Origin: a virus
Taxonomy: Duplodnaviria > Heunggongvirae > Uroviricota > Caudoviricetes
Virus record (IMG/VR): IMGVR_UViG_3300021255_002129
Strand: one strand, 5' to 3'
Length of the DNA stretch: 64,000 nt
The notes beneath the pieces were generated by a model. That model had not been told where the DNA came from. It saw only the letters and a program-made list of their open reading frames with translations, and ran no database searches. The position numbers and the translations under genes are program-made. Positions 9,200 to 57,406 of this stretch are shown here, one piece after another. How positions within the stretch are numbered: position 1 is the first letter of the stretch; each line of letters opens with the position of its first letter.

Positions 9200-9212
9200 G
9201 GAGGGAAATAAT

Positions 9213-9542
9213 ATGACAATGAATGAATTTTTAAAAGAATTAGAAATATATACAAAATATTTTAGTCCTGCGGCAATGGATTTTTATACCGAATTAAAAG
9301 AAAAAACTCAAAATACTTTTACTGAAAATGGTAGAAAAATACTTATTTGTATGCAACAAAATCAAGCAACATATAAAACTTTTAGTTCAAAACAATTAGG
9401 AGAATTATTATTTATACCTCCACGCTCAGTATCTGGAGCTATGAAAAAGTTACTTAATGAGGGGTATTGCCGCAAACAAGCTACAAACCCTGTGACATAT
9501 GAGTTGACAACTTTAGGCAGTGAAACTCAGCTTGACGATTAA
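9213..9542 (+). CDS. hypothetical protein (109 aa)
   Basis: RBS GGGAGGGA. Confidence 0.4.
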   Translation: MTMNEFLKELEIYTKYFSPAAMDFYTELKEKTQNTFTENGRKILICMQQNQATYKTFSSKQLGELLFIPPRSVSGAMKKLLNEGYCRKQATNPVTYELTTLGSETQLDD

Positions 9543-9560
9543 AAAAATTTTTGATATAAT
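9532..9560 (+). promoter_or_regulatory. early promoter TTGACG-N17-TATAAT
   Basis: TTGACG at 9532-9537 and TGATATAAT ending at 9560. Confidence 0.55.
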
Positions 9561-9615
9561 ATTAATATAGAAAAATGAAAATTAAAAGAATAATTAGAAA
9601 AGGAGAAGAAAGTAA

Positions 9616-28804: not shown

Positions 28805-29201
28805 TGAAAAAAAAGAAATAGAGTTTGGAACTCTTTATGATATAAATAAAAACATAGTAAAACAAAATGAAATAAAATTAAGTGAAGGAGTTTTAAATAG
28901 TAAAAAACAAATTATCGCTGATTTTATTAAAAAATGTAATAACTATTATTATATGTTATTATGCAACGAAAGAAAAGATTATACTGTGTTCCGTTGGGTT
29001 AATATATCTAATGATAATGATGCAAAAGAGATTGCTCAAATACTAGTTGATGAATGCTTAACTAATAGAGGCGAAATCCGCGGAATTGATTTAACAAAAA
29101 CTAAAGATGCTATTGAAATATGGATGGTAATAGATGATGAAGCCTATGTGTATTACTTCTTCCCATATGATAATGCAATAATAGAGGTAGGAGGATTTTA
29201 A
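28788..29201 (+). CDS. hypothetical protein (137 aa)
   Basis: RBS AAAAGGAGGA, then 'MEQENNEKKEIEF...'. Confidence 0.4.
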   Translation: MEQENNEKKEIEFGTLYDINKNIVKQNEIKLSEGVLNSKKQIIADFIKKCNNYYYMLLCNERKDYTVFRWVNISNDNDAKEIAQILVDECLTNRGEIRGIDLTKTKDAIEIWMVIDDEAYVYYFFPYDNAIIEVGGF

Positions 29202-29203
29202 TA

Positions 29204-29470
29204 ATGAAAAAAATTGTTAGTGTTATTAAACCATTTATAGTAAATCAAAATGTTTTTGTTTATGAAGATGGAAATAAAATAGACGTTTTATCTGTGCCTT
29301 TAAATGATATTCAAAACATTTTAGTTAATACAGCTACTCAATATGAAGTAACTGATATAGAATTAATAGGTTCTAAAAAATACTTAAATGGTATTGTTAA
29401 TAAAATTAAAGAAACAGAAATGTCTCAATATAATGAACATAAATTAAATATTAATATAATTAATGGATAG
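29204..29470 (+). CDS. hypothetical protein (88 aa)
   Basis: RBS GGAGGA. Confidence 0.4.
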   Translation: MKKIVSVIKPFIVNQNVFVYEDGNKIDVLSVPLNDIQNILVNTATQYEVTDIELIGSKKYLNGIVNKIKETEMSQYNEHKLNINIING

Positions 29471-29479
29471 GAGGTAAAC

Positions 29480-29731
29480 ATGAAATATCTTATAACTACA
29501 ACTGAAGTTTATAGATTTAGTAGTGAAGATGAAGCAACTAATTTTATTGAAGCTGCAAAGAAAGAGTCTGGATACGTATTAACTAAACATACAGTTGAAT
29601 ATAAAGAAAGAAAACAAAAAGGTGAAGTAATTGATTTTTGGTGAAAGGTTACCCTTGTTAAAAGTTTTAATAATGAAAAAGAACCTGAAACTGATGTTGA
29701 TGTAGAATATAAAGTAGGGAGTGCATTTTAA
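29480..29731 (+). CDS. hypothetical protein (83 aa), one TGA ('DFWW')
   Basis: RBS GGAGGTAAACA, then ATG. Confidence 0.4.
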
Positions 29732-29732
29732 T

Positions 29733-30203
29733 ATGTTTGGAATAGATATACTTGGTAGATATGAAGATAAATTAATTAAATATACAAAATTAAATGAATA
29801 CGCACAAGAGCCAACTAGAGGAAGTGCGGCAGCAGCTGGCTATGACCTTTATGCTGCGATTAGTGATTCTGTAACGATTCCCGCACATTCAACAGTAAAA
29901 ATAGGAACAGGATTAGCTTTTGCATTACCTGATAATACTTTTGCGGCAATATTTGCTAGAAGTGGTCTTGCAACAAAGCAAGGTTTAAGACCTGCTAATT
30001 GCGTTGGTGTATGCGATAGCGATTATCGCGGAGAATATATAGTAGCAGTTCATAATGATACTAATGAAGAAAAAATAATTGAACCAAATGAAAGAATTGC
30101 TCAAATGATATTAATGCCATATATCCCAATGATGTTTGGAGAGGTTGAATCTCTAGATGAAACAGAACGCGGAGAAGGCGGATTTGGAAGCACAGGTGTT
30201 TAA
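29733..30203 (+). CDS. dut: dUTP diphosphatase
   Basis: Motifs 'AAGYDLYA', 'RSGLA', 'DSDYRGE' and 'RGEGGFGSTG'. Confidence 0.9.
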   Translation: MFGIDILGRYEDKLIKYTKLNEYAQEPTRGSAAAAGYDLYAAISDSVTIPAHSTVKIGTGLAFALPDNTFAAIFARSGLATKQGLRPANCVGVCDSDYRGEYIVAVHNDTNEEKIIEPNERIAQMILMPYIPMMFGEVESLDETERGEGGFGSTGV

Positions 30204-30204
30204 T

Positions 30205-30507
30205 ATGGATAAAATACAAAGACATCAAGAATTATTAAATACAATGCATGAATTATACGTAACTAAAAATCATGATTATGGAGATAGTGTTCATGATACA
30301 TATTTAAAATATGGTTTAACATCTTTTTTAGTACGTTTAGAAGATAAGTTAAATAGAGCAAGAACAATTAGTCAAAAAGAACAATTAGTAAAAGACGAAA
30401 AAATTAAAGATACTTTATTAGATTTAGCTAATTATGCAACATTAGCAGTATTAGAATTAGAATGGGAGGAAAGTCAACGTGTACAAGGTGGAGATACAAA
30501 CAACTAA
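30205..30507 (+). CDS. putative MazG-like nucleotide pyrophosphohydrolase-domain protein
   Basis: 'HDYGDSVHDTYLKYGL...FLVRLEDKLNRA' resembles small MazG-like phage proteins. The call rests on recalled motifs only. Confidence 0.35.
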   Translation: MDKIQRHQELLNTMHELYVTKNHDYGDSVHDTYLKYGLTSFLVRLEDKLNRARTISQKEQLVKDEKIKDTLLDLANYATLAVLELEWEESQRVQGGDTNN

Positions 30508-31261
30508 AGGTCAAGTTACAGTAGAAATTAATGACATGACAGAATTGGGAAAAGCATTAGCTCCTTATGAAGATATATACATTAGCTGTAGAGCAAAATA
30601 TTGTGATGGTGTAGCAGAACCTTTAAAAGAAATAAAAAAACCTAAAAAAGAATATAATACAAATGTAACAATTACTAATTTTAATATTGATTGAATGAAA
30701 ATTAAATCAGCATGTATGACTACTATTTCTAAACAAGCTGGAGATAAAGAGCCTTCAGATAACTGGAAAAAGAAATTATTATTAGCAGAGCACTCACCTA
30801 TTAGAAGAGGACAAATAAGTTGGAAATGGGATGAGATTCCTTATGCTATTTCAACTCACTTTGCTAGACATCACGAAGGATGTGAAAAATTTGTAGGAAC
30901 TTCAAGAGAAGATAGAACTGGTGTAGATAGAACAACTCGCTCTCAAATGGATTGTGTTCCTATGGAAATGGATGCTAATATACAAGCATTAATTAACATA
31001 TCTTGGCGTAGATTATGTACATGTGCAGATCCAACTACTAGAAAGTATTGGGAAGCAGTATTAGAAGCTATTAGAGAATATGATGAAAATATTTATTGGG
31101 CTTGTGTTCCTCAATGCATAAGATGCGGCGGATGTGTAGAATTTTCTAATTGTGGTTTCTATGACACATTAATGAAAGATAGTCAACCAGAAGAACAAAA
31201 AGTATTAAAATTAAGATACGATAAATACAATCAATTTAGAGATAAGAAAAATCATAGATAA
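30479..31261 (+). CDS. ThyX-like flavin-dependent thymidylate synthase (divergent), one in-frame TGA at 30692
   Basis: GTG start after GGAGGA. N-terminus 'MYKVEIQTT...CRAKYCDG' and 'LAEHSPIRR...THFARHHEG...TSRE' resemble ThyX. Track ORFs 30479..30694 and 30695..31261 are contiguous in one frame. Confidence 0.5.
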
Positions 31262-31294
31262 AAAATTTTTGGAGATAAAAGGAGAAAAAAGAGA

Positions 31295-32743
31295 ATGAAT
31301 TTAATATTATTAGGAATTATTATTGCAGTAATTATTTTAGTGAGCATATTAGTTGCTGTTAGTTATGTAAAATGCCCGCCCGACATGGTATTTTTAATCT
31401 CAGGTATTAAAAAAGAGCCTAGAGTTATTACAGGAAAGGCCGCATTTAGAATACCTTTCTTTGAAAGGATAGATAAAATACCTTTAAAATTAATTCAAAT
31501 AGATGTTAGAGCAAACAGAGTTCCAACAAATGATTTTATTAATGTTGATGTAGATGCAGTAGCAAATGTAAGAATTTCAACTAAAAATGAATTAATACAA
31601 ATTGCTGCAAAACATTTCTTAAATCAAACAACAAAAGATATTGCAACTAATGTTCAACAAATACTTGAAGGTAATATGCGTGAGATTATTGGACAAATGA
31701 TACTTACTGATTTAGTAAATAATAAACAATTATTCTCACAAAAAATACAAGAAAATGCAATAGATGATATTGAAAAATTAGGACTTGAAATTGTAAATTT
31801 AAATGTTCAAAATGTATCCGATGAAAATGGAGCTATTACAGATTTAGGAATTGATAATCTATCACAAATTAAGAAAAATGCTAAAATAGCAAAAGCTCAA
31901 GCTGATAAAGAAGTAAAAGTTGCTGAAGCGGCGGCAGATGAAGAAGGAGCTCGTGCACGTGCGGAAGCTGACGAAAAAATAGCAGAACAACAAAAAAATT
32001 TATCAATTAAAAAAGCCGAATACAAAATTGAACAGGATAAAAAACAAGCTGATGCAGATGCTGCATATGATATCCAAAAAGCAATACAACAAAAAACTAT
32101 TAACGAAAAACAAGTTGATGCTCAAATAACTAAAACTGAAAAATCAACTGAATTAAAACAAAAAGAAGTCGCTCTAAAAGAGCAAGAACTTGAAGCTGAA
32201 ATTAAAAAACAAGCAGATGCAGAAAAATACGCTGCAGAAATCCAAGCTGAAGTTGATAAAACTCGTGCTATAAAAGCTGCAGAAGCTAAAGCCCAAGCTC
32301 GTATTGCTGAAGCGGAAGCAGAAAAAGAAGCCAATATTAAAGAAGCTGAGGGAATTAAAGCAAAATTATTAGCAGAGGCCGAAGGTAAAAAAGCTATCCT
32401 TCAAGCTGAAGCAGAAGGTATTCGTGCTAAAGGTGTTGCAGAAGCTGAAGGTATTGAAAAGAAAGCTGAGGCTCAAAAGAAAATGGGTGAAGCGTCTATC
32501 GTTGAAATGATTATGAATGCCTTACCACAAGTTGCAAAAGAAGTATCTGCTCCATTAGCTAACGTAGATAATATTACAATGTATGGTGACCAATCAACTA
32601 AACTTATTGAAAATAATACACAAAAAATAGACCAAGTATTAAAAGTAGCTCAAGATAGTTTAGGATTAGACTTAAAGAGTCTTATAGCAGGGTTTGCCGC
32701 AAATAAAGTAATACAAGATAATAAAAAGAAAAGTGATGAATAA
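31295..32743 (+). CDS. SPFH/band-7 flotillin-like membrane protein
   Basis: N-terminal TM segment, an SPFH core ('KCPPDMVFLISGIKK...') and a long Ala/Glu/Lys-rich coiled coil typical of FloT/YuaG. Confidence 0.8.
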   Translation: MNLILLGIIIAVIILVSILVAVSYVKCPPDMVFLISGIKKEPRVITGKAAFRIPFFERIDKIPLKLIQIDVRANRVPTNDFINVDVDAVANVRISTKNELIQIAAKHFLNQTTKDIATNVQQILEGNMREIIGQMILTDLVNNKQLFSQKIQENAIDDIEKLGLEIVNLNVQNVSDENGAITDLGIDNLSQIKKNAKIAKAQADKEVKVAEAAADEEGARARAEADEKIAEQQKNLSIKKAEYKIEQDKKQADADAAYDIQKAIQQKTINEKQVDAQITKTEKSTELKQKEVALKEQELEAEIKKQADAEKYAAEIQAEVDKTRAIKAAEAKAQARIAEAEAEKEANIKEAEGIKAKLLAEAEGKKAILQAEAEGIRAKGVAEAEGIEKKAEAQKKMGEASIVEMIMNALPQVAKEVSAPLANVDNITMYGDQSTKLIENNTQKIDQVLKVAQDSLGLDLKSLIAGFAANKVIQDNKKKSDE

Positions 32744-32760
32744 TCACTTTTTTATTTTAT
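32728..32760 (+). terminator. rho-independent terminator overlapping the flotillin stop
   Basis: AAGTGAT-GAATA-ATCACTT followed by TTTTATTTTAT. Confidence 0.5.
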
Positions 32761-32767
32761 ATAAATT

Positions 32768-32796
32768 TTGACAGTTCTAGAATTTTATGATATAAT
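32768..32796 (+). promoter_or_regulatory. promoter TTGACA-N17-TATAAT (consensus)
   Basis: TTGACA at 32768-32773 and TGATATAAT ending at 32796. It drives the glycosylation cluster. Confidence 0.6.
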
Positions 32797-32823
32797 GTAA
32801 ATATAAAGAAAGAAGGCTTTACT

Positions 32824-33768
32824 ATGAATGATAAAATAGATATAGTAGTTACATACTTAAATGATCAAGACCAGCAGTGACAAGAAGAATTTAATAAATA
32901 TAAACAATATGAAGTTTCTAAAGGATGAATAAATCCCAATAGTATTCAAGCCTTCGGAGAAGAAAGAATAAGAAATTGAGATTTTACTCAGTATTGGTTT
33001 AGAGGAGTAGAAAAATGCTGCCCATGAGTTAATAAAATATTTTTTATAATTCAAAATGAACATCATATTCCAGAATGATTAAATACTACTAATCCAAAAA
33101 TTCGTATAGTATATCATAATGAGTTTATACCAAAAGAATTATTACCTACATTTAATCCTATGACTATTGGATTATATATTAATCAAATTAAAGATTTAAG
33201 CGATAATTATATTATGTGTGACGATGATTATTTCTTTTTAAATCCGATAGATGAAACTAAGTTTTTTATAAATAATAAACCTCAGCATGAAGATAACCAA
33301 GCTCCATATGGATACTTTTACGATGGTGATGAATTTTTACATATAATGAATAATTGCTTTGATTTTGAAAAAAAATATGACGATGGTAAAACAAAATATC
33401 ATTTTTATCATTTACCGACAGCAAGAAATAAAACATTAGAACAAAAAATTTTAAAAGATAATTATAATGATATATTAAATTCTCAAAGAGTTAGTAGATT
33501 TAGATACCCAACTAATTTAGATGCAAATATTTATTCTAATATTTTAAAATTAACTCACAATGCAGATATCCTACCAAAAGGTACTATCTATGGAAATAGT
33601 GCTTATGTTGCATTACAACCAAATATTGATTTTTATCAATATAAAGATAAAGAAATGGTTTGTTTCAATGACGTAGATTTAGTAACAGGGCATTTTGAAG
33701 AAATACAAAAATCTCTTATTGAATTTTTAAAATATAAATTCCCAAATAAGAGTTCGTTTGAGGTGTAA
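32824..33768 (+). CDS. Stealth-family (CR1-CR4) sugar-phosphate transferase; at least six in-frame TGA
   Basis: 'IDIVVTYLNDQDQQW' (CR1-like) and '[37 protein letters not shown]' (CR2-like). In frame with track ORF 33160..33768. Confidence 0.6.
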
Positions 33769-33770
33769 AA

Positions 33771-34565
33771 ATGAAAGAAAAATTTTTTAGTGTTATAATT
33801 CCTAATTACAATAATTCAACATATTTAGAAAAATGTTTAAAATCAGTATTAAATCAAACTTTTACTAATTATGAATTAATTGTAATAGATGATGTTTCAA
33901 CAGATAATAGTGTTGAAATAATTAAAAATATTTTTAATGAATACAAAGATAAAGATACAAAATTAATTGAATTAAAAGAAAAAGCTTGAAATGGCGGTAG
34001 CCGCAATATTGGTATTAAACAAGCTACCGGAAAATATTTTCTATTTTTAGATAGCGACGATTGATTTATGAATAATACTATATTCCAACAAGTCTATGAT
34101 TTTATCATAAGTAAAAATAACCCAGAATTAATTAGACTTTCTTTTGATATATTAACAAAAGATAATTGGCAATTTACAGTATGACTAGATGAAAAAGATT
34201 TAGATGAATTAGCAAATACTTGTTATGTAGCTTCTTGAATAAAATGCATTAGAGCAGATAAAATGATACCCTTTGAAGAAGATACATTAATGGAAGATGC
34301 AATTCAACATATTAAACAAATTGATGTCTTAACTAATTTTGAAGTTTTAAAAATATCCGCCGTATGTCATAATACTCAAAATCCAAATCAATGTAGCTCA
34401 CAAGAAAATAAAAAATTACAAGATGCTAAATGAGAAAAATCAATGCATAAATTTTATCAAAGTTTATTAGATTTAAAATGTAATCACGACTATTGTGAAA
34501 AAAGAAGATTATGAAAAATAGAAGAAGCAAAAGGCCATATTGAAAGAGGAGAGGCTTGACAATAA
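33771..34565 (+). CDS. family 2 glycosyltransferase (GT-A); about seven in-frame TGA
   Basis: 'FSVIIPNYNNSTYLEKCLKSVLNQT...IVIDDVSTD' followed by 'FLDSDD'. Confidence 0.7.
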
Positions 34566-35140
34566 TGAAATTATCAATAATAACACCATATTATAATTGT
34601 CTAAACTATCTTCAAAACTTAGTAAAGGTTTTAGAACCACAATTAACCAATGAAGTCGAATGAATTATTATTGATGATGGCTGCCATGAACAAGAACTTG
34701 ATAAAATTAAAGCAACTATAATACATTTATTAAATAATAGCGGATGTGCAGGAGTCCCTCGCAATTATGGATTAGATATTGCAAAAGGAGATTATATAAC
34801 TTTCGTTGATGCAGATGATTTAGTTTCTAAAGATTTTGTATCTAAAATAATAAATAAAATAAATTTAACAACATTTGATTATTGTTTAATGAGTTGAGAA
34901 AAAATAGATAAATCATTTTATGTAGACGTAACAACTGGAAGACCAGATTGAAACTGTAGTGTGTGAGGTATTATATATAACAAAAATAATTTAAAAAATG
35001 TGCGTTTTAATAATAAAAAATTTGCAGAAGATTATGATTTTAATCAAATAGCATTAAAAGGAAAAGAAGAGAGAATACTTGATTACTTATATTTTTATAA
35101 TAGCAATGAAAATGGACTATCTGCAAATTGGGAAGGATAG
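34565..35140 (+). CDS. family 2 glycosyltransferase (GT-A); four in-frame TGA
   Basis: 'LSIITPYYNC...IIIDDGC...FVDADD'. The ATG overlaps the preceding TAA. Confidence 0.7.
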
Positions 35141-35143
35141 AGT

Positions 35144-36256
35144 ATGGAAAATCAAGAACAATTTTATACAAATATATTCTATTTTGATAGAATAAATAAA
35201 ATAGGCGGAGTTGAGACTTTCTTTTACGAAATAGCAAAAAAATATTGTAATAATGATATTACTGTATTTTATTCTTTTGGAGATTTAAAACAAATCCAAA
35301 GATTAAAAAAGCTTATAAGAGTAGTTAAATACACAGGACAAAAAATAAAATGTAAAAAAGCATTTTTCAATTACAGTTTAAAGCCTATCGACAATATACA
35401 GGCGGAAAAATATTATGAAATTATCCATGCTAATTATAAAGATTTAGGTATTTATCCTAATGTTAGTCCAAAAATAGATGAATATATTGGAGTTAGTCAA
35501 TCTGTATGCAATGCATTTACAGAATTAACTGGTTTACCTTGCACGCTATGTTATAACCCAATTACAATAGATAAGCCTAAAAGAGTATTATATCTTATTT
35601 CTGCAACTAGATTAACAAGAGAAAAAGGAAAAGATAGAATATTAAAACTTGCAAAAGCATTAGATGATGCGAAAATCCCCTATGTTTGAACTATATTTAC
35701 AAATGATACTAAAGAGATAAAACATCCCAGAATAATCTTTATGGAGCCACAATTAAATATTAGAGATTATATCGCTAAATCAGATTATACTGTTCAATTA
35801 AGTGATACAGAAGCTTATTGTTACACGATGATTGAAAGTTTATTATTAAACGTCCCTATTATTGTAACTCCATGAAAATGTTTAAAAGAGTTAAATATAA
35901 CAGAAGAATATGGATTTATATTACCTTTTGATATGGAAGATATTCCTGTAAAAGATATTTATAATAAAGAATTTAATTTTAAATATAAATTAATTCCAGA
36001 TACTTGAAATAAAATAATTGAACCAAGCAAATCTACTTATCAAGAAGAATTAAATGCCAAATATATTGTAGAAGCATTAAAAACATATCAAGATAGAAAT
36101 TTCAAAGATGTTCAATTAGGAATTATTCCTAGTCCTGGTTCTAGATGGACGGTTACAAAAGATAGATTGGATTTATTGTTAGGAGAAAATGAAAATCAAG
36201 AGGCTTATGTAAAATTAATTGACATAGTTAAAGATGATAAAGGAGATGATATATAA
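35144..36256 (+). CDS. GT-B fold (GT1/GT4-like) glycosyltransferase; three in-frame TGA
   Basis: 'GGVETFFYEIAKK', 'ISATRLTREKGKDRIL' and an E-X7-E-like 'ESLLLNVPIIVTP' motif. Confidence 0.65.
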
Positions 36257-36762
36257 TGAATATCTTATCATTAGACCTTTCAACCAAATCAAGCGGCTGA
36301 GCTTATTTTGAAGATGGAGAACTTAAAGATCATGGATGCATTACATCTGCATCTACTGATTTAATTAAAAGAATATATATTATGAGAGATGGGATTGCGG
36401 AAATCCTTGATAAATATGCTGTAACCAAGATTGTTGTAGAAGAAGTTAGACCTGAAGGTGGTTACGGAGTAGGCAATACAAAAACTCATCGAGCTTTAAT
36501 GTGACTTCAGGCAGCAACCGCATTTTTAATTCATGATAATTACCCTTCTATTGAAATAGAATATATATATCCAAGTTCATGACGTGCAGCTTTAGGTATT
36601 AAAAATGGTCGCGGAATAAAGAGGACATCATTAAAAGAGCAAGATATACAATATGTTCAAGATAAATATAATATAAATGTAAATGATGATGAAGCAGATG
36701 CAATATGCATAGGTTTATCACAATATAAAGAAAAAGATGATAATGAAATAAATTGAGCATAA
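36256..36762 (+). CDS. RuvC-like Holliday-junction resolvase; three in-frame TGA
   Basis: 'LSLDLSTKSSGWAYF' (RuvC motif I-like) and 'DDEADAICIG' (catalytic Asp pair). It is the last gene before the convergent terminator. Confidence 0.7.
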
Positions 36763-36801
36763 AAAAAAAGAGGTGGATTAATTTCCACCTCTTTTTTATT
36801 T
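36762..36801. terminator. bidirectional rho-independent terminator at the early/late convergence point
   Basis: A7-AGAGGTGGA-TTAATT-TCCACCTCT-T6ATTTTTATT: a perfect 9-bp stem flanked by an A-tract and a T-tract. Confidence 0.8.
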
Positions 36802-36804
36802 TTA

Positions 36805-37380
36805 TTATAATTCAGCTACAGTTTTTACATTAGTTAAATTAGAAAATTTACTTGTTATCCATCTTTTTGCATTATCATCTGCAACAATTATTTTACAATC
36901 ACTAGGTACGCTATTAAACATTCCAGTATATGAAGTAACATTACCAAAATTAAAATTGCGAATATCTAATAATGTTAATCTTTCACAATTTGCAAACATA
37001 TAGCTCATATCCGTAACCCTATTAGTATTAAAATTACTTAAATCTAAATTAATAATATGATTACAAGCATAGAACATATATCTCATATTATTAACATTTT
37101 CTGTATTAAAAGTACTTACATTTAAACTTGCTAAAACATCACAGTAATAAAACATTTGTGCCATAGTTGTCATTTTAGAAGTATCTAATGCAGCCAATTC
37201 AGGATTTAAGTCTCCTCCCTTATATTCCCTAAAAGATATAAATCTTGGAGAGTATGTAGTAGTAATACTATCAATAGCTTCACTCATATCTTCTGGTTTA
37301 TATTTAGTTGTATTTCCTTTTTTGCCACGAATACTATTTGCAATATTAGTTAAGTATTCTTTAGTTACTAATACTTTCAT
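36805..37380 (-). CDS. DUF285 (BspA/'Mycoplasma-type') repeat protein
   Basis: Tandem ~25-aa repeats such as 'NFNTNRVTDMSYMFANC' and 'NMRYMFYACNHIINLDLSNF' are characteristic of PF03382. Confidence 0.6.
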   Translation of the reverse strand: MKVLVTKEYLTNIANSIRGKKGNTTKYKPEDMSEAIDSITTTYSPRFISFREYKGGDLNPELAALDTSKMTTMAQMFYYCDVLASLNVSTFNTENVNNMRYMFYACNHIINLDLSNFNTNRVTDMSYMFANCERLTLLDIRNFNFGNVTSYTGMFNSVPSDCKIIVADDNAKRWITSKFSNLTNVKTVAEL

Positions 37381-37919
37381 TAAAATTCCACCTCGTCTCC
37401 ATCGATAATTGAATTAATTGCTGCCTCGATTGCCGCTTTCATTTCACTAGTAGTAGGATAATTTGATAAATCAACAGTTTGTGTTCCTAATTTTTCCCAT
37501 TGAGTTGTATATATATATTCATCATATAAATTACTTGTTTCTCCACTATTATTAGGTACTAAATATACAGTAGTTGTACTTATATCTAAAACAGGTAACG
37601 TTTCTACAACAGCAATAGCAAATTTAGGGATAACACTAATCATATTATCTACTTCTGCTTTTGTATATCTGTCATCAATTTCTTCTCTTAATTCAGTATC
37701 ATCATATTCAACTGAGTCCCCTTTTGGACCTTTTAATATAGGAGAAGTATATACATTTCCATTAGTTAAAGTTATTATTAATTCATACTCCGCATTCATT
37801 GTGATTGATGCAATACCTACACCATCTTCACCTTTAGGACCAGCGACACCTAAGTTAGCAAGAGTTAAACCTTTAATTTTATTTCCTGTTTTTCCATTTA
37901 AATCTGCCATCCTACGCAT
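37380..37919 (-). CDS. hypothetical protein with short collagen-like G-X-Y stretches
   Basis: Contains 'GVAGPKGEDGVG' and 'GPKGDS'. Confidence 0.45.
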   Translation of the reverse strand: MRRMADLNGKTGNKIKGLTLANLGVAGPKGEDGVGIASITMNAEYELIITLTNGNVYTSPILKGPKGDSVEYDDTELREEIDDRYTKAEVDNMISVIPKFAIAVVETLPVLDISTTTVYLVPNNSGETSNLYDEYIYTTQWEKLGTQTVDLSNYPTTSEMKAAIEAAINSIIDGDEVEF

Positions 37920-38298
37920 CCTCCTTTATACTTTCTGGATATAGTTTAAAAATCTTTGGACCTTCATCATCATAACCTAAAAGCATTTGTGCGATTGATG
38001 AATCTGGATTTAATTCTATATCATACCAATAATCAGTTGGTTTGTTAATCACAGTTCCTATTTTTGAATCGAAGCTAGTTATAGAAATAGTTACTTCTTC
38101 AGTATCTTCTTCTACTATTGTATCAACAGACATTACAACCATATTTTCTTTGCCTTCTTTTGTAACATTTAATCTAACAACATCTCCTGCAACAAAAGTA
38201 TATGGTTCGCCTTCAGGTGTCAATGCACCAAAAGTAATAGAACCAGATTGACCTCTAGTTACTTTTAAAGTTGTGCCGTCTTCATCTATTATAAACAT
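37912..38298 (-). CDS. hypothetical protein (128 aa)
   Basis: RBS AAAGGAGGCTGG. A TATAAATA element lies upstream. Confidence 0.45.
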   Translation of the reverse strand: MFIIDEDGTTLKVTRGQSGSITFGALTPEGEPYTFVAGDVVRLNVTKEGKENMVVMSVDTIVEEDTEEVTISITSFDSKIGTVINKPTDYWYDIELNPDSSIAQMLLGYDDEGPKIFKLYPESIKEDA

Positions 38299-38369
38299 AA
38301 TATCCAGCCTCCTTTTGAATCTTCTATTTATAAATAAAAACTATCTTTTGTATATTTATTATTTTTACC

Positions 38370-38407
38370 CAAAAAAAAGAAAGCTACAACTAAATATGTT
38401 GTAGCTT
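38370..38407 (-). terminator. rho-independent terminator (minus strand) followed by a conserved TTTTGGGTAAA element
   Basis: AAGCTACAAC...GTTGTAGCTT hairpin, then a T-tract on the minus strand. Confidence 0.6.
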
Positions 38408-38704
38408 ATAGAACACTTTATTTGTTATATTAATTATTTCTTCGCCATAAGTAGCAATAATATCTGCAATTACTTCTTCCTGTTCAAGAGAAAGATAGAC
38501 ATTATAGGAGAACATTGCGGCATGCACTAACTCATGACAAATAACTTTCTTTAGCATACTTCCTTCTAAATTCTCTGCTAAATATATGGTTTTAGTATCT
38601 TTATCGCACATTCCTAATGTACGAACTCCATCCTCGCGGATAAGTATCTCATCTCAAGGATGAACGAATTTCACTCTCCATCCTATTCCATTAATTGTAA
38701 TCAT
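38390..38704 (-). CDS. ImmA/IrrE-family (DUF955) zinc metallopeptidase-like protein, one in-frame TGA
   Basis: HEXXH motif 'ICHELVHAAM' with upstream 'GWRVKFVHPW(TGA)DEI...IYLAENL'. It is extended 5' of track ORF 38390..38611 through the TGA to the ATG at 38702-38704. Confidence 0.55.
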
Positions 38705-39291
38705 TATTTAATTTTTTCTGCTAAAGTGCTTAATTTTTGAGAAAGAATTTCTTTTTCTTCTGGAGTGGCATCATTAATCATTTCCATCATATCTCCGCTT
38801 AATTCTTTCATATATTTTTCTAATTCCATCATTTGTTTTTCTTTTCCTTCATGCATTTCTTTAGATTCCATATACATACGTCTTGAATTGCCACTTCTAC
38901 CTTCGCGGTAATCTCTTAATTCTCTAGGATATACATTTCCATAGTCACGCATTCCGCGGCTATATGCATCTCCATAGTAATAAGGTTCAGGATAATAATA
39001 TCTACCATCTGAATATCCTCTTCCATTACCACGAGCGTTATTTCCCACAGAACCACTTGACATATCTCCACCATTATAATACATAACTGGATAATACATC
39101 ATATTACGAGTTGGTTCTTTTTCTTTATCTTCCATTGCTTCTACGACAGTGCAATAATAAATAGTTTCCTCCAAGTCTTTAATCATATCAACAACTTCGC
39201 CTAATTCTTCAGCATTAGTTTTTGATAAATCTCCCATTTGGCTTTCTACACAAGACATTAGTCTTTCTTTCATTGCTTTTAATCTCTCCAT
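38704..39291 (-). CDS. hypothetical Tyr/Gly/Arg-rich intrinsically disordered protein
   Basis: Low-complexity core 'YYPVMYYNGGDMSSG...RGNGRGYSDGRYYYPEPYYYGDAYSRGMRDYG' flanked by helical Met/Glu/Lys-rich ends. Confidence 0.45.
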   Translation of the reverse strand: MERLKAMKERLMSCVESQMGDLSKTNAEELGEVVDMIKDLEETIYYCTVVEAMEDKEKEPTRNMMYYPVMYYNGGDMSSGSVGNNARGNGRGYSDGRYYYPEPYYYGDAYSRGMRDYGNVYPRELRDYREGRSGNSRRMYMESKEMHEGKEKQMMELEKYMKELSGDMMEMINDATPEEKEILSQKLSTLAEKIK

Positions 39292-50393: not shown

Positions 50394-50767
50394 AATATCA
50401 TGCGGCGGTCGTCGGTCTTAGAACTTTTAGTCTTGCTCTTACGCATGCCTGATCGGCTCCCGCGCCTCCTTTCCTTATTGTTTCCGCACTCTCCACCTTT
50501 AGTGCAATTATAACCAAAAAGTGGAATATTACTTTTGTAATAACCTATTAAATATTTTTCTAACCTAACAGCTTGCTCTTGTGTCAATCCACTAGATATT
50601 ACAATGTGTTTAATGTTTTTTCAGCCATATTTTTTAATAGGTTTATAGACTAACTGGCCTTTATAGCCTCGCCCATTTTTCCATCTAGACTCAGGTTTTT
50701 GGCCAGTTAATCCAATATATCGTTTCCCATTAGGGAAAATTAATTCATATACACAATAATTATGCAT
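50387..50767 (-). CDS. GIY-YIG homing-endonuclease-like protein inserted between endolysin and holin; at least one in-frame TGA
   Basis: 'VYELIFPNGKRYIGLTGQKPESRWKNGRGY' is a GIY-YIG motif and '...LEKYLIGYYKS...FGYNCTKGG' is I-TevI-like. The ATG overlaps the endolysin TAA, and the TAG stop overlaps the holin start. The C-terminal basic tail is encoded by an anomalously GC-rich patch (~50400-50480). Confidence 0.55.
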
Positions 50768-51945
50768 TATAGTTTTTGTAGACTTGATGCTGGGTAGAAT
50801 CCTGTAGTTCCAGATCCATTTCCAACTTGATATGGATAAGGTCTTCCATCCCAAATTCTTAAAATTTGTCTAGTCCATCCAATACCATATGCAGTATTAC
50901 TTCCACCATAAGAACTTCCATTACCAGTTCCTATAATCTTAACTTTATCTCCTACTTGTAATCCAGTTGGTTGTGGTGTAGGTTGTGGAGCAGGTTCATC
51001 ATATTTTTTAATTGAACTTTGATCCATCCATCCTAAGTCTCCTGTTGTATTATATGGATGCGCGCTTCCTGGGTTTTTTCTTGTAATATAAGTAACTTTA
51101 TTACTTACACTTCCTGCAGGACTAGCTGCATTAGAATTAACATATAGAGGTCCATTGATTATTACATGGTCTCCAATATTAAATGCATCACTTGGACCTG
51201 GAGTAGGTGTAGGGGCAGGACTTCCGCCATCTATTAATTTTTGAACGTCATCTGGTAAATATATAAAACATCTAAAGTAATAATTACTTGAACATCCCCA
51301 TCTACCATTATTATTTGTTCTAATTTGGTTCCAGAATATTGTGCTTGAGCCCCATCCAGATTCAGATGTATAAACTTGATTATTACTATCTACTCTTTCA
51401 ACGATTGCTACATGACCAGCGCCTGAGTTTCCCCAGCACATAATTGCTCCACGTTTTGGGGTTGAACCAGTTTTAAGCCCCGCTGTCTCCGCTCTTTCTT
51501 TAAAATTAATAGCATTGCAATTTAAAGTTTTATAAGTACATCCGCTTGTATCTCTTGCAATATTTATAATTTCATTAAATCTACCACTTGCATAACCTAC
51601 GCAGTTTGCTAATGCATTTGCTGGTGCATATAATGGATTACCTTTGATACAAGTATTCCATCCACCAGAACCTGTAACTATAAAGTTTTTGTTATTAGCA
51701 GGTCTGCTAATTCTCATTATAAAACCCGCAGCACCTATACCTTCAGGTTCATCTGCGTTAAGGTTTTCAATTTCATAATGCTCATCCGCATCATTTAATT
51801 CTTCAGGTGTGTCTGTGTTAAATAAATATTGAACATTTTCGTCATCAATATCATCTCTTAAAAAAGCTTTAGCAACCATAGTTTGCACTTCTGTAGGTGC
51901 CATTTCCACTCTTTTAATTCTTTCTTCACTTGATAATTGTGCCAT
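50767..51945 (-). CDS. endolysin: CHAP-domain peptidoglycan hydrolase with two C-terminal SH3b-like cell-wall-binding domains
   Basis: CHAP catalytic Cys 'ANCVGYASGRF' and His 'GAGHVAIVERVD'. A Pro/Thr linker 'PAPTPTPGP' precedes two SH3b-like repeats ('GDHVIINGPLYV...', 'LQVGDKVKIIGTGNG...'). Confidence 0.8.
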   Translation of the reverse strand: MAQLSSEERIKRVEMAPTEVQTMVAKAFLRDDIDDENVQYLFNTDTPEELNDADEHYEIENLNADEPEGIGAAGFIMRISRPANNKNFIVTGSGGWNTCIKGNPLYAPANALANCVGYASGRFNEIINIARDTSGCTYKTLNCNAINFKERAETAGLKTGSTPKRGAIMCWGNSGAGHVAIVERVDSNNQVYTSESGWGSSTIFWNQIRTNNNGRWGCSSNYYFRCFIYLPDDVQKLIDGGSPAPTPTPGPSDAFNIGDHVIINGPLYVNSNAASPAGSVSNKVTYITRKNPGSAHPYNTTGDLGWMDQSSIKKYDEPAPQPTPQPTGLQVGDKVKIIGTGNGSSYGGSNTAYGIGWTRQILRIWDGRPYPYQVGNGSGTTGFYPASSLQKL

Positions 51946-57066: not shown

Positions 57067-57121
57067 TAAAATCTTCTCTCCTTTCTTAAGATTGAGATTA
57101 TATATCTCATTTCTAAATCTA

Positions 57122-57163
57122 TATCAAAAGAAGGGACAAATAATTATCTTATTTTGTCCCTTC
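57122..57163 (-). terminator. rho-independent terminator (minus strand)
   Basis: Perfect 11-bp stem GAAGGGACAAA/TTTGTCCCTTC flanked by an A/T tract. Confidence 0.6.
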
Positions 57164-57406
57164 TTCATTAATACTTGCGGCAACCGACTCTTCGGTTTTA
57201 GAATTAGATTCTTCATTTGTTTGGCTAGCTTTCAATTCTTTTTTAGCCATTTCTGCACGTTCTATATCTTCTTTTTTACAAAATTCAAAATATTGTTGTT
57301 CAATTTCTGTCATTATACTTTTCATAATAAAATATATTGCATCTATTGATATTCCACTTTCATTTAAATCCTGTACAATTTTTTGTTCTAAATCTCTAAA
57401 TATCAT
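57149..57406 (-). CDS. hypothetical protein (85 aa)
   Basis: RBS AAAGGAGTAAAAAG, then ATG. True TAA stop. Confidence 0.45.
   Translation of the reverse strand: MIFRDLEQKIVQDLNESGISIDAIYFIMKSIMTEIEQQYFEFCKKEDIERAEMAKKELKASQTNEESNSKTEESVAASINEEGTK

What the first reader, a model, noticed from the sequence alone, without database searches (positions are those of the whole stretch)
32768..36256. Four-gene glycosylation module: Stealth-family hexose-1-phosphate transferase, two GT2 and one GT-B glycosyltransferase, all TGA-rich
CR1/CR2-like Stealth motifs ('IDIVVTYLNDQDQQW', '...[22 protein letters not shown]') identify a capsule-type sugar-phosphate transferase. It is followed by two DxD GT-A enzymes and a GT4-like enzyme with overlapping start/stop codons, under one consensus promoter. 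Stealth enzymes normally build phosphodiester-linked capsular or teichoic-like polymers. In a phage this suggests remodelling of host surface polysaccharide or glycosylation of phage components. These genes carry 3-7 TGA each, so they behave like late genes in code terms despite their position in the early-strand block.
Basis: partly seen in the sequence, partly recalled or inferred. Interest (0 to 1): 0.75.

Follow-up and report, generated by a model that had tools for sequence, protein, structure and literature searches.

The report
Phage sugar-phosphate glycosylation gene cassette
A large gut or rumen phage that reads the stop codon TGA as tryptophan carries four soluble sugar-transferring enzymes, one of a sugar-phosphate-adding type not found in the phage collections searched; they form one version of a swappable glycosylation kit shared by many phages, and its target is still unknown.

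Summary
With TGA read as Trp, 32824-36256 holds four tightly packed genes:
- G1, a 314-aa Stealth-family enzyme (Pfam CR2 E=1e-30; fold matches GNPTAB and CpsY).
- G2 and G3, two GT2 (DxD) enzymes.
- G4, a GT4-type GT-B with an EX7E motif.

They lie behind the only 12/12 sigma-70 consensus promoter in the 10 kb scanned. The operon has five genes: a RuvC-like resolvase (36256-36762) follows, then a bidirectional terminator.

The window matches the ~125-kb TGA-recoded "Agate" phages. TGA makes up 83% of the cassette's Trp codons, against 14% in the replication arm and 32% in the structural arm. That equals the genome's neutral A-ending bias (~90%), so the cassette is TGA-unconstrained rather than TGA-enriched.

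Comparative data reframe the module. G4 is the conserved core. Its upstream partners are swapped among relatives and among ~30-kb siphophages, where the cassette lies inside the terminase operon.

No Stealth homologue appears in 50,697 deposited phage genomes or in PHROGs.

The acceptor is unresolved: virion proteins ~0.4, host wall glycopolymer ~0.3, DNA ~0.1. I rate it a new variant of a known kind.

The parts
32729..32759 (+). Weak hairpin (AAAAGTGAT-GAATA-ATCACTTTT) plus a T-run, overlapping the stop codon of the upstream SPFH/flotillin gene. Probable terminator that insulates the cassette operon.
   Evidence: Read directly from the sequence. It has too few G-C pairs for the terminator scan's threshold.
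32768..32796 (+). Sigma-70/sigma-A consensus promoter TTGACA-17-TATAAT with a TG-extended -10.
   Evidence: 12/12 match, the only one in 29000-39000. One of 2 in the window against 0.18 expected. Same TGnTATAAT class as sites in front of many replication-arm genes.
32824..33768 (+). G1: minimal (314 aa) Stealth-family hexose-1-phosphate transferase. Soluble. 5 in-frame TGA (Trp).
   Evidence: Pfam Stealth_CR2 E=1e-30 and CR4 E=2.5e-5. Family profile against PDB sequences: GNPTAB E=8e-23, CpsY E=3e-20. AF2 model of the 97%-identical P0001 has pLDDT 95. The top 13 Foldseek PDB hits are all GNPTAB or CpsY. TGA aligns to invariant W. No TM segment.
33771..34565 (+). G2: GT2 (GT-A) glycosyltransferase, DSDD at residues 94-97, with an unassigned C-terminal half. 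7 TGA.
   Evidence: Pfam Glycos_transf_2 E=2.2e-31. The PDB sequence hits cover only residues ~5-140: K4CP, GalT1, TarS, TarP. A homologue sits next to the GT-B in small phage L030.
34565..35140 (+). G3: short (191 aa) GT2 glycosyltransferase, DADD at residues 82-85. 4 TGA. Its ATG overlaps the G2 stop (TAATG).
   Evidence: Pfam Glycos_transf_2 E=2e-19. G3-type partners are found at 45-50% identity in small phages such as L003, L012 and L038.
35144..36256 (+). G4: GT4-type retaining GT-B glycosyltransferase with EX7E (E223-E231) and a ~60-aa C-terminal beta-rich extension. It is the conserved core of the cassette. 3 TGA.
36256..36762 (+). G5: RuvC-like Holliday-junction resolvase, last gene of the same operon. 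4 TGA, 0 TGG. Its ATG overlaps the G4 stop.
   Evidence: PHROG 827 E=7.5e-20 and PHROG 159 E=4e-17. The G4-RuvC adjacency is conserved in L001, L026, L027 and L028.
36764..36797 (.). Bidirectional intrinsic terminator at the point where the + and - arms converge.
   Evidence: 14-bp stem with T-runs on both strands.

Best explanation
Shown:
- 32768-36797 is a five-gene operon of a ~125-kb Agate-like phage that reads TGA as Trp.
- Its promoter looks like a host-type consensus promoter, but its mRNA can only be translated once TGA is read through.
- G1-G4 are four soluble enzymes with no TM segment or signal peptide.
- They form one allele of a modular, horizontally shuffled phage glycosylation cassette. 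G4 is the conserved core. G2, G3 and the Stealth enzyme G1 are exchangeable accessories.

Inferred mechanism:
- G4 (retaining GT4) puts the first sugar on the acceptor.
- The two inverting GT2 enzymes extend it.
- The Stealth enzyme transfers a hexose-1-phosphate from a UDP-sugar onto a sugar hydroxyl and releases UMP.
- The product is a short, negatively charged oligosaccharide containing a phosphodiester.

Most likely acceptor (about 0.4): the phage's own virion proteins, made in the same late window. This would parallel the virion glycosylation by phage-encoded enzymes known in mycobacteriophages, and the self-encoded fibril glycosylation of giant viruses. The variable partner set would then diversify the glycan exposed on the particle.
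For: Enzyme identities.

Soluble enzymes: max Kyte-Doolittle (19-residue window) <=1.37 for G1-G4, against 3.47 for the flotillin TM segment.

Translation is not possible before the code switch, and TGA is unconstrained in the block:
- 19 of 23 Trp codons in the cassette are TGA, and 4 of 4 in RuvC.
- Other NNA/NNG codon pairs are 89-93% A-ending.
- The replication arm uses 14% TGA and the structural arm 32%.
- The same pattern holds in four relatives whatever their cassette content.

Modularity:
- G4 plus RuvC is conserved in L026, L027 and L028. Their upstream partners are an NTP-transferase-like protein (L026, L028) or a methyltransferase-GT2-GT8 fusion (L027).
- In small phages whose TerL is 66-88% identical to that of L003, the same slot is empty, or holds GT-B alone, or GT-B plus GT2, or GT-B plus an NTP-transferase-like protein, or GT-B plus GT2 plus Stealth.
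- A GT2 partner occurs in 15 of 19 non-redundant Stealth loci and the GT-B in 7 of 19, in shuffled gene order.

Late context in small phages:
- The cassette is co-oriented with TerL, portal and capsid and lies just upstream of them in L003, L023, L024 and L025.
- In L003 no terminator-like site separates it from TerL.
- In L016 it follows a tail-fibre-like gene.

Donor self-supply, as in viruses that glycosylate themselves:
- The L016 Stealth domain is fused to a TagD-like cytidylyltransferase and an EcbF/BcbF-type phosphatase.
- It sits beside a UDP-Glc/GDP-Man-dehydrogenase-like gene.

In BFVD the only proteins sharing the whole Stealth fold (TM-score 0.65-0.78, E<=2e-13) are the two named 'Stealth protein', from Megaviridae environmental samples.

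Precedent for late-expressed phage glycosyltransferases that glycosylate capsid and tail tube (Freeman et al. 2023) comes from my own knowledge. The title phrase is cited in papers listed.
Against: - No glycoprotein evidence of any kind.
- The visible virion proteins have no Ser/Thr-rich tails like those glycosylated in mycobacteriophages. The major capsid and tail-tube genes were not identified among the window's genes.
- In the cultured Butyrivibrio phage Arawn the G4-type GT sits in the replication module, between SSB and a replication initiator, not with structural genes.
- In two small phages (L032, L035) the same slot also holds DNA methyltransferases.
- The nearest characterised relatives of all the enzymes act on cell-envelope polymers or lipids.
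- Known Stealth acceptors are sugars, not amino acids, so the order of action is inferred.
- High TGA use could also simply mark low-abundance enzymes that tolerate inefficient read-through, rather than strict lateness.
Confidence: 0.4

Rival explanations
1. Host envelope remodelling. The soluble enzymes act at the cytoplasmic face on lipid-linked precursors of a host wall teichoic acid, lipoteichoic acid, capsule or EPS, as TarM, TarS and prophage TarP do. They add a sugar and sugar-phosphate side chain. This would mask the receptor against superinfecting phages or against re-adsorption of progeny to debris.
For: - The closest characterised relatives are envelope-polymer enzymes. G2 and G3 hit TarS, TarP, the TagF N-domain and TuaG. 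G4 hits TarM and TuaC. Stealth hits CpsY and capsule polymerases.
- The L016 fusion of a TagD-like domain, an EcbF/BcbF 'capsule biosynthesis phosphatase' and Stealth is teichoic-acid or group-2-capsule chemistry.
- The phage carries a pectate-lyase-type tailspike (52379-54190), so a surface polysaccharide is a likely receptor.
- Lack of TM segments does not argue against this, because TarM, TarS and TarP are also soluble.
- The cultured hosts are Butyrivibrio. These are Gram-positive-type rumen bacteria rich in EPS and teichoic acids (my own knowledge).
- Arawn has the GT in an early or middle module.
Against: - This phage has a virulent-type genome. The cassette cannot be translated before the code switch, which is late for surface remodelling to matter.
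- In the integrase-bearing small phages the cassette is inside the terminase operon, with no terminator of its own in L003. It would therefore not be expressed in lysogens, which removes the usual serotype-conversion rationale.
- There is no flippase, GtrA/GtrB-type or Wzx/Wzy component.
- Only 1 of 185,579 species-representative genomes carries this Stealth subfamily.
Confidence: 0.3
2. DNA hypermodification. The phage makes a hydroxymethylated pyrimidine. G4 glycosylates it in DNA, and G2, G3 and G1 elaborate the sugar into a phospho-oligosaccharide that blocks restriction or CRISPR, like T-even glucosyl-hmC but more complex.
For: - The cassette lies at the end of the replication arm in an operon with a DNA resolvase.
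- It is just downstream of a dUTPase, a DUF1599 'nucleotide modification associated domain 1' protein, and a conserved divergent ThyX-like protein.
- The 125-kb relative has SHMT there.
- In Arawn the G4-type GT sits between SSB and a replication initiator, near a nucleoside 2-deoxyribosyltransferase-like gene.
- DNA methyltransferases share the slot in L032 and L035.
- Variable sugar-adding sets are typical of DNA-glycosylating phages (my own knowledge).
Against: - No ThyA-type hydroxymethylase, TET/JBP dioxygenase or hmdNMP kinase was detected in the window or in the small phages.
- Some carriers have G4 as the only cassette gene (L033) or are 31-kb phages with no annotated means of making an acceptor base (Arawn).
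- DNA-modifying enzymes would be expected to act from early replication, yet this block is the least translatable early.
- The ThyX-like call itself is sub-threshold (best E=2e-4 among 17 members).
Confidence: 0.1
3. Lysis-assisting or pool-draining activity. The enzymes build dead-end products on undecaprenyl-phosphate-linked or nucleotide-sugar intermediates late in infection. This starves wall synthesis and helps lysis, which would explain why early translation is so strictly prevented.
For: - Borges et al. found that the most strongly recoded genes in Agate and crAss-like phages are lysis-related.
- The cassette plus RuvC is the only block in the window with unconstrained TGA use.
Against: - The phage has conventional lysis candidates: a CHAP/SH3-like lysin at 50767-51945 (judged from the translation, not tested with a tool) and membrane proteins.
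- Four different transferases and swappable partners are far more elaborate than a pool drain needs.
- The slot is empty in close relatives, so the cassette is dispensable.
- The TGA level equals neutral expectation, so no special selection for TGA need be invoked.
Confidence: 0.05
4. Host-derived or mis-assembled DNA: the cluster is bacterial capsule or teichoic DNA flanking or chimeric with a phage.
For: None found. The enzyme families are typical of bacterial polysaccharide loci.
Against: - Same GC3 (0.12 against 0.14) and the same TGA=Trp code as the rest of the phage.
- Flanked on both sides by phage genes.
- Syntenic in a 125,690-bp viral contig and in other 99-139 kb relatives.
- Essentially absent from bacterial genomes.
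Confidence: 0.01

Closest known systems
Stealth protein family (Sperisen et al. 2005): human and zebrafish GlcNAc-1-phosphotransferase GNPTAB, M. tuberculosis CpsY, and the meningococcal capsule polymerases CsaB and CsxA
   Same: - The CR2 region with the invariant DD(D) motif, a CR4-like C-terminus and a CR1-like N-terminal DIVxTY strand are present.
- The whole-domain fold matches (TM-score 0.7-0.83).
- The enzyme is therefore expected to transfer hexose-1-phosphate from a UDP-sugar and release UMP.
   Different: - It is a bare 314-aa catalytic core with no TM, spacer, Notch/DMAP or polymerase-extension domains.
- The Pfam CR1 and CR3 models do not score.
- It is encoded by a tailed phage, in an operon with three other transferases and a resolvase.
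- Acceptor and donor are unknown.
- It is absent from PHROGs and from 50,697 deposited phage genomes.
Mycobacteriophage virion glycosylation by phage-encoded glycosyltransferases (Freeman et al. 2023; my own knowledge, title phrase seen)
   Same: Soluble phage-encoded glycosyltransferases that are accessory, variable between related phages, and expressed with late genes. This is the leading functional analogy.
   Different: - The hosts differ: Clostridia-type here, Actinobacteria there.
- That system has no Stealth or sugar-phosphate step.
- No glycosylated target sequence is recognisable here.
- No experimental evidence exists for this cassette.
Giant-virus (Mimivirus/Megaviridae) self-encoded glycosylation clusters
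   Same: - These viruses carry their own, clade-variable sets of glycosyltransferases and nucleotide-sugar enzymes to decorate the particle.
- In BFVD, the Megaviridae 'Stealth protein' entries are the only proteins that share the whole fold of G1 (E=4e-14 and 2e-13).
   Different: - Eukaryotic viruses, unrelated genomes, 14-18% identity.
- No evidence that the Megaviridae Stealth proteins act on virions.
Prophage or host WTA glycosyltransferases TarP, TarS and TarM of Staphylococcus aureus, and Gtr serotype-conversion modules
   Same: G2 and G3 share the GT-A nucleotide-binding half with TarS and TarP. G4 shares the GT4 fold with TarM. All are soluble enzymes that could act on lipid-linked polymers from the cytoplasm.
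   Different: - The similarity is generic: only the N-terminal ~100 aa for G2 and G3, and only the C-domain for G4.
- There are no GtrA/GtrB-type membrane parts.
- The cassette is not placed or insulated like a lysogenic-conversion moron.
TGA-recoded 'Agate' phages (Borges et al., bioRxiv 10.1101/2021.08.26.457843)
   Same: - A relative of about 125 kb, and animal-gut or rumen sources.
- TGA read as Trp.
- The replication genes are largely free of TGA, while the structural genes and this operon use it.
   Different: - That paper highlights lysis genes, a tail gene and an intron endonuclease as the preferentially recoded families and does not mention glycosyltransferases.
- Here the cassette plus RuvC is the most fully recoded block.
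- No suppressor tRNA lies in this 64-kb window.

Membership tests
Stealth (hexose-1-phosphate transferase) family | Conserved region 2 (PF11380), including the acidic DD(D) metal- and donor-binding motif | tested here: met
   G1 residues 48-152: E=9.9e-31, 106.6 bits against a cut-off of 39.4. 35 of 35 family members hit. D134 and D135 are invariant and D133 is >=90% conserved. They align to the GNPTAB 'LNDD' motif.
Stealth (hexose-1-phosphate transferase) family | Conserved region 4 (PF17103) | tested here: inconclusive
   G1 scores 24.6 bits, just under the 27.4 cut-off (E=2.5e-5). 34 of 35 family members match at E<=1, best 3.9e-8. The L016 relative scores 29.2 bits, above the cut-off. The VCFND motif is invariant.
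Stealth (hexose-1-phosphate transferase) family | Conserved region 1 (PF17101) | tested here: inconclusive
   The Pfam model hits only 2 of 35 members, weakly (E=0.07). However, the family profile aligns 'IDIVVTYLN.RD' to GNPTAB 'IDVVYTWVNGTD', and the L016 relative hits CR1 at E=1e-5.
Stealth (hexose-1-phosphate transferase) family | Conserved region 3 (PF17102) | tested here: inconclusive
   No Pfam CR3 hit in 0 of 35 members. The corresponding part of the fold is present: the profile aligns to CpsY over residues 43-311 and the TM-score normalised to CpsY is 0.82. An invariant H196-L197-(P198) motif lies where GNPTAB has 'HMP'. Sequence-model test negative, structure-level test positive.
Stealth (hexose-1-phosphate transferase) family | Overall catalytic-domain fold | tested here: met
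   AF2 model pLDDT 95.3. The 13 best Foldseek PDB hits are all GNPTAB or CpsY, E=1e-18 to 5e-15. The next hits are generic GT-A enzymes at E>2e-4.
Stealth (hexose-1-phosphate transferase) family | Transfers sugar-1-phosphate (UMP released), forming a phosphodiester | not testable with these tools
   Needs an enzyme assay with the recoded protein.
GT2 (GT-A, inverting) glycosyltransferases | PF00535 domain with a DxD motif | tested here: met
   G2: E=2.2e-31, DSDD at 94-97. G3: E=2e-19, DADD at 82-85.
GT4-type GT-B (retaining) glycosyltransferases | Glycos_transf_1 C-domain, two-Rossmann fold, EX7E motif | tested here: met
Gtr-type O-antigen / serotype-conversion module | GtrA flippase, membrane-anchored GtrB bactoprenol glycosyltransferase and membrane GtrC; expressed from the prophage | tested here: not met
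   No TM segment in G1-G4. The PHROG 'GtrB-like' hits cover only the soluble GT-A half. The cassette is embedded in the late operon in small phages.
T-even-type DNA glucosylation system | A phage enzyme that makes a hydroxymethyl pyrimidine, plus a DNA-specific GT-B | tested here: not met
Phage virion-glycosylation systems (mycobacteriophage type) | Glycans detected on capsid or tail proteins, dependent on phage glycosyltransferases | not testable with these tools
   Only context is available: late-type coding and position. No Ser/Thr-rich tails in the visible virion proteins.
TGA-recoded Agate-like phage (context) | TGA decoded as Trp, a ~100-140 kb genome, replication genes in the standard code, and a suppressor tRNA | tested here: inconclusive
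   TGA=Trp. No TGA stops in 61 genes. Relatives lie on contigs of 99-139 kb. But no tRNA is found in this window; a suppressor, if any, lies elsewhere in the genome. Clade membership was judged by description only, not by phylogeny.

The most novel reading that the evidence does not exclude
The cassette hypermodifies the phage's DNA. A hydroxymethyl pyrimidine would be made with the help of the conserved divergent ThyX-like/Cys-cluster protein and the DUF1599 (NMAD1) protein just upstream. G4 would glycosylate it, and the GT2 and Stealth enzymes would extend the sugar into a phosphodiester-bearing oligosaccharide. That would be a sugar-phosphate DNA modification with swappable 'serotypes' across phage lineages.

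A second, more probable novel reading (~0.25) is a teichoic-acid-like phosphoglycan on the virion itself, that is, a phosphoglycosylated virus particle.
Probability: 0.08. Interest if true: 0.9.

Novelty: new variant of a known kind. Interest (0 to 1): 0.55.

Why it matters
Phage-encoded glycosyltransferases are known in three settings: DNA glucosylation, O-antigen or teichoic-acid conversion, and mycobacteriophage virion glycosylation.

A Stealth sugar-1-phosphate transferase in a tailed phage appears in none of the resources searched. It is absent from PHROGs, from 50,697 deposited phage genomes, and from the papers found. In BFVD, the only proteins matching the whole Stealth fold come from giant viruses.

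The comparative data show a portable glycosylation toolkit in gut and rumen Firmicute phages:
- A conserved GT4-type core enzyme with more than 1,000 homologues.
- A shared pool of exchangeable partners: two kinds of GT2, Stealth, an NTP-transferase-like protein, methyltransferase-GT fusions, and cytidylyltransferase/phosphatase fusions.

This is the signature of a surface or identity-determining glycan under diversifying selection. Whichever acceptor proves right, the chemistry would be new for phages:
- A phosphoglycan on virions.
- Wall remodelling during the lytic cycle.
- A sugar-phosphate modification of DNA.

The cassette is also a clean internal marker for how stop-codon recoding partitions a genome. 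It is the only block in the window where TGA is used at the neutral rate, behind an early-type consensus promoter. That makes the 'translation gated by code switch' idea directly testable.

A cultured handle exists: Butyrivibrio phages Arawn and Idris carry the core enzyme.

Tried and rejected
1. Deposited phage relatives of the Stealth protein. tblastn against INPHARED found none. PHROGs found none. blastn of the 8-kb region gave only short, weak matches.
2. Host assignment through prophages. A scan of 185,579 species genomes gave a single 12-kb Clostridia MAG contig that is itself phage-like. A 'Methanobrevibacter' label on one homologue is probably a binning artefact and I disregarded it.
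3. Recurrent neighbours as extra module parts.
   - C30 is an SbcD-like exonuclease.
   - C3 is a Metallophos protein typical of that genome region.
   - C25-C27, C4 and C11 are unknown or terminase-side genes.
   - None could be tied to glycosylation. A possible 'uncovering-enzyme' role for the Metallophos proteins was considered and dropped for lack of consistent linkage.
4. Looking for glycosylation targets. No Ser/Thr-rich tails in the 22 minus-arm proteins.
5. Testing G4 for kinship with DNA glucosyltransferases. Not supported. There is no sequence-level PDB match either.
6. Testing the neighbouring 188/260-aa protein as ThyX. No PDB, PHROG or NCBIfam hit, and only sub-threshold Thy1 hits. 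It stays unassigned.
7. Literature. No paper on phage Stealth enzymes. The Butyrivibrio phage paper does not discuss its GT.
8. 'TGA enrichment' as evidence of special selection. Rejected after the neutral-expectation control.
9. The structure tool would not accept my code-4 translations, so the models are of near-identical database proteins: P0001 (97% identical to G1) and P0121 (96% identical to G4).

Full report
**1. What is in the sequence**

Under the standard bacterial code, 32768-36256 contains only fragments. Reading TGA as a sense codon joins them into four long, tightly packed plus-strand genes, followed by a fifth:

| Gene | Coordinates | Length | In-frame TGA / TGG |
|---|---|---|---|
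| G1 | 32824-33768 | 314 aa | 5 / 1 |
| G2 | 33771-34565 | 264 aa | 7 / 1 |
| G3 | 34565-35140 | 191 aa | 4 / 1 |
| G4 | 35144-36256 | 370 aa | 3 / 1 |
| G5 | 36256-36762 | 168 aa | 4 / 0 |

- Four of the five TGA sites in G1 fall in columns that are Trp in 118 of 118 homologues.
- None of the 61 genes I listed in the window ends in TGA.
- So the code is TGA=Trp, not TGA=Gly and not a set of pseudogenes.

**2. Enzyme identities**

*G1 is a Stealth-family protein.*
- Pfam Stealth_CR2 scores E=1e-30, far above the curated cut-off. CR4 falls just below its cut-off.
- A profile of the phage family hits the catalytic domains of GlcNAc-1-phosphotransferase (E=8e-23) and M. tuberculosis CpsY (E=3e-20).
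- An AlphaFold model of a 97%-identical database protein has pLDDT 95.
- The 13 best PDB matches to that model are all GNPTAB or CpsY.
- Across 35 family members, the Pfam models for CR1 and CR3 score in 2 and 0 members respectively. This is therefore a divergent, minimal Stealth domain.

*G2 and G3 are GT2 enzymes.*
- Pfam E=2e-31 and 2e-19, with DSDD and DADD motifs.
- Only their N-terminal nucleotide-binding halves resemble solved enzymes: K4CP, GalT1, TarS, TarP.

*G4 is a GT4-type GT-B.*
- It passes the Pfam cut-off.
- E223 is invariant and E231 near-invariant, giving an EX7E motif.

*Other points.*
- G5 is a RuvC-like resolvase (PHROG 827, E=7.5e-20).
- None of G1-G4 has a membrane segment.

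**3. The transcription unit**

- A weak hairpin with a T-run overlaps the stop codon of the upstream SPFH/flotillin gene.
- At 32768-32796 lies a perfect TTGACA-17-TATAAT promoter with a TG extension. It is the only 12/12 match in the 10 kb scanned and one of two in the window, where 0.18 are expected.
- A 14-bp bidirectional terminator at 36764-36797 follows G5, at the point where the two arms converge.
- The unit is therefore five genes, not four.
- Only the G2/G3 and G4/G5 junctions overlap. The other two have gaps of 2 and 3 nt.
- TGnTATAAT sites of the same kind precede many replication-arm genes. The promoter is thus of the 'early' class.

**4. Genome context and the TGA pattern**

*Layout.*
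- The window is a phage with GC ~28%.
- The plus strand carries a replication and nucleotide-metabolism arm. By reading the translations it includes gyrase/topoisomerase, ligase, DnaB, primase, PolIII alpha and NrdD/NrdG. The Pfam tags on the homologous genes of relative L001 agree.
- The minus strand carries a structural arm.
- Pfam identifies the genes just upstream of the cassette as a dUTPase, a DUF1599 protein and a flotillin.
- This matches the ~127-kb virulent TGA-recoded 'Agate' phages of Borges et al..
- A 125,690-bp relative carries the same five genes at 76-88% amino-acid identity.

*TGA as a share of Trp codons.*

| Block | TGA / all Trp codons | Share |
|---|---|---|
| Cassette G1-G4 | 19 / 23 | 83% |
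| RuvC (G5) | 4 / 4 | 100% |
| Upstream plus arm | 16 / 114 | 14% |
| Structural arm | 31 / 96 | 32% |

- The cassette differs from the structural arm at Fisher p=1.4e-5.
- The pattern recurs in four relatives whatever their cassette content.

*Neutral control.*
- Other two-fold A/G-ending codon pairs are 89-93% A-ending throughout the window.
- The cassette therefore sits at the neutral expectation, and every other block is depleted of TGA.
- The careful reading is this: this block has never needed to be translated before TGA becomes readable, and it tolerates whatever inefficiency read-through has.
- It does not show positive selection for TGA.

**5. The module is one allele of a variable cassette**

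*Agate-like relatives.*
- G4 has 1077 homologues, more than 100 of them at >=55% identity, many on 90-139 kb contigs.
- G1 has only about 14 homologues at >=68% identity.
- In three other Agate-like contigs the G4-RuvC pair is conserved at the same locus, but the upstream genes differ:
  - L026 and L028: a ~220-aa NTP-transferase-like protein.
  - L027: a 620-aa methyltransferase-GT2-GT8 fusion.

*Small phages.* The same parts occur in unrelated ~30-56 kb phages, most of them with an integrase.
- Stealth, a G3-type GT2 and a G4-type GT-B appear in shuffled order, just upstream of and co-oriented with terminase, portal and capsid genes.
- In L003 a terminator precedes the block, and the next one comes only after TerL. 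The cassette is therefore part of the late packaging operon, not an insulated moron.
- Among phages whose TerL is 66-88% identical to that of L003, the slot varies:

| Slot content | Loci |
|---|---|
| Empty | L029, L031, L036 |
| GT-B alone | L033 |
| GT-B + G2-type GT2 | L030 |
| GT-B + the NTP-transferase-like protein | L034 |
| GT-B + a DNA methyltransferase | L032, L035 |
| GT-B + unknown 226-aa protein + G3-type GT2 | L038 |
| GT-B + GT2 + Stealth | L003 |

  More distant members of the same TerL family (L008, L009, L012, L022; TerL 53-61% identical) also carry the Stealth-containing version.

*Another TGA-recoded lineage (L016, L018).*
- The Stealth domain is fused to a TagD-like cytidylyltransferase and an EcbF/BcbF-type 'capsule biosynthesis phosphatase'.
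- It sits beside a GT2, a GT1 and a UDP-Glc/GDP-Man-dehydrogenase-like gene.

*Distribution.*
- Only one of 185,579 species-representative genomes has this Stealth subfamily, on a phage-like 12-kb contig.
- No deposited phage has it, and no PHROG matches it.
- In BFVD the only proteins that share the whole fold are Megaviridae 'Stealth proteins'.
- The cultured Butyrivibrio phages Arawn, Idris and Closwp03 carry a G4-type GT at 37% identity. This points to rumen Lachnospiraceae-type hosts.

**6. How it probably works**

*Shown.*
- Four soluble transferases are encoded by one operon.
- They can only be translated after the code switch.
- The cassette is accessory and modular.

*Inferred from family chemistry.*
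- G4 (retaining) primes an acceptor.
- The GT2 enzymes (inverting) extend it.
- The Stealth enzyme adds a hexose-1-phosphate to a sugar hydroxyl, producing a phosphodiester-bearing oligosaccharide.

*The acceptor is the open question.*

I favour the phage's own virion proteins (~0.4) for these reasons:
- The cassette is co-expressed with late genes, both in the small phages and, by its codon use, here.
- It is dispensable and allele-variable, like an exposed surface glycan.
- Some lineages supply their own activated donors, as self-glycosylating viruses do.
- Virion glycosylation by late phage glycosyltransferases has precedent.

Against this reading:
- No target motif is visible.
- In Arawn the GT sits in the replication module.

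Remodelling of a host wall glycopolymer (~0.3):
- For: the enzyme kinships and the teichoic-type fusion.
- For: a pectate-lyase-type tailspike at 52379-54190.
- Against: the late-operon placement, the late translatability, and the lack of expression expected in lysogens.

DNA hypermodification (~0.1):
- For: the neighbours, namely dUTPase, DUF1599/NMAD1, a divergent ThyX-like protein, SHMT in the relative, and RuvC.
- Against: no hydroxymethylase or TET/JBP was detected anywhere, including in 31-kb carriers.
- Against: G4 has no special likeness to DNA glucosyltransferases.

**7. Verdict**

The functional options it offered are still the two leading ones.
- The 'fixed four-gene capsule-type module' picture should be replaced by a swappable cassette built around a conserved GT-B.
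- This is a new variant of a known kind, phage-encoded glycosylation. It has a component (Stealth) absent from every phage resource searched here, and there is a cultured entry point for experiments.

Noticed in passing
window 30479-31261 (+); the ATG at 30695 gives 188 aa, and the code-4 ORF from 30479 gives 260 aa with one TGA: A very conserved family (1162 homologues, >73% identity among the best 120) with no Pfam, PHROG, NCBIfam or PDB match. 13 of 17 members give sub-threshold ThyX (Thy1) hits, best E=2e-4. It has an invariant Cys cluster (CVPxC..C..GC.E...C). It sits next to DUF1599 and dUTPase and could be a novel pyrimidine-metabolising enzyme.
   Followed up: partly
window 30157-30507 (+): A DUF1599 protein, 'nucleotide modification associated domain 1' (Pfam E=2.4e-10; PHROG 1485 E=2.7e-30), overlapping the end of the dUTPase gene (29721-30203).
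   Followed up: partly
window 31295-32743 (+): A phage-encoded SPFH/Band-7 flotillin-like protein (482 aa) with an N-terminal TM helix, a long Ala/Glu/Lys coiled coil and no Trp codon at all. It is present at the same locus in relative L027 but replaced by SHMT in L001. The region upstream of the cassette is a plasticity zone.
   Followed up: partly
window, structural (-) arm 36805-63944: The structural genes use TGA for only 32% of Trp codons, although the neutral expectation is ~90%. Several (for example the lysin at 50767-51945, 0 TGA and 8 TGG) avoid it completely. Either recoding is recent, or highly expressed late proteins still avoid inefficient read-through.
   Followed up: partly
window 1-64000: ARAGORN finds no tRNA gene of any kind in the 64 kb, so the TGA suppressor (if the phage encodes one) lies in the unseen half of the ~125-kb genome.
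   Followed up: no
window 7127-7155 (+): The only other perfect TTGACA-N17-TATAAT promoter in the window. It shares the extended TTTATGATATAAT -10 region with the cassette promoter and sits upstream of 7219-7491 and of a gene at 7568-8500 that looks like a GIY-YIG protein in the translation (not tested with a tool).
   Followed up: no
window 52379-54190 (-): A 603-aa protein with a pectate-lyase/rhamnogalacturonase-like N-terminal beta-helix signature (Pfam E=3.8e-11). It is probably a polysaccharide-binding or depolymerising tailspike, which implies a surface-glycan receptor.
   Followed up: no
window 36805-37380 (-): A 191-aa protein with DUF285 (BspA-like leucine-rich repeats, Pfam E=8e-22). 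Its N-terminal motif (L..IA.aIR.K.G) recurs in a 341-aa protein just upstream of the glycosylation cassette of L016. It is likely a fibre or receptor-binding protein.
   Followed up: no
L016 9221-10951 (also L018): A tri-domain fusion in another TGA-recoded phage lineage: a TagD-like glycerol-3-phosphate cytidylyltransferase (TIGR01518, E=2.4e-25), an EcbF/BcbF 'capsule biosynthesis phosphatase' HAD domain (E=1.4e-16), and a Stealth domain with CR1, CR2 and CR4 all detected. Neighbours are a UDP-Glc/GDP-Man-dehydrogenase-like gene, a GT2, a GT1 and a GIY-YIG-looking gene (judged by eye from the translation).
   Followed up: partly
L024 10953-11534; also L006, with related copies elsewhere in L013 and L017: A ~190-aa NUMOD4/HNH-type homing-endonuclease-like gene is inserted between the Stealth gene and the downstream GT2 in L024 and L006. 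It is absent from the otherwise syntenic L025.
   Followed up: no
L041 (Butyrivibrio phage Arawn, NC_048848.1) 8968-10047: The cultured phage's G4-type glycosyltransferase overlaps the SSB gene by 22 nt and precedes a replication initiator. A nucleoside 2-deoxyribosyltransferase-like gene lies about 1 kb upstream. The published description does not comment on the GT.
   Followed up: partly
window 54889-57258 (-): By eye, the 789-aa protein contains two near-identical ~130-aa internal repeats (…YNK(Y/H)NLSYS.FEQGQISS.GIN.TFPSRFRT.DYIKVLKG…). Not examined with any tool.
   Followed up: no
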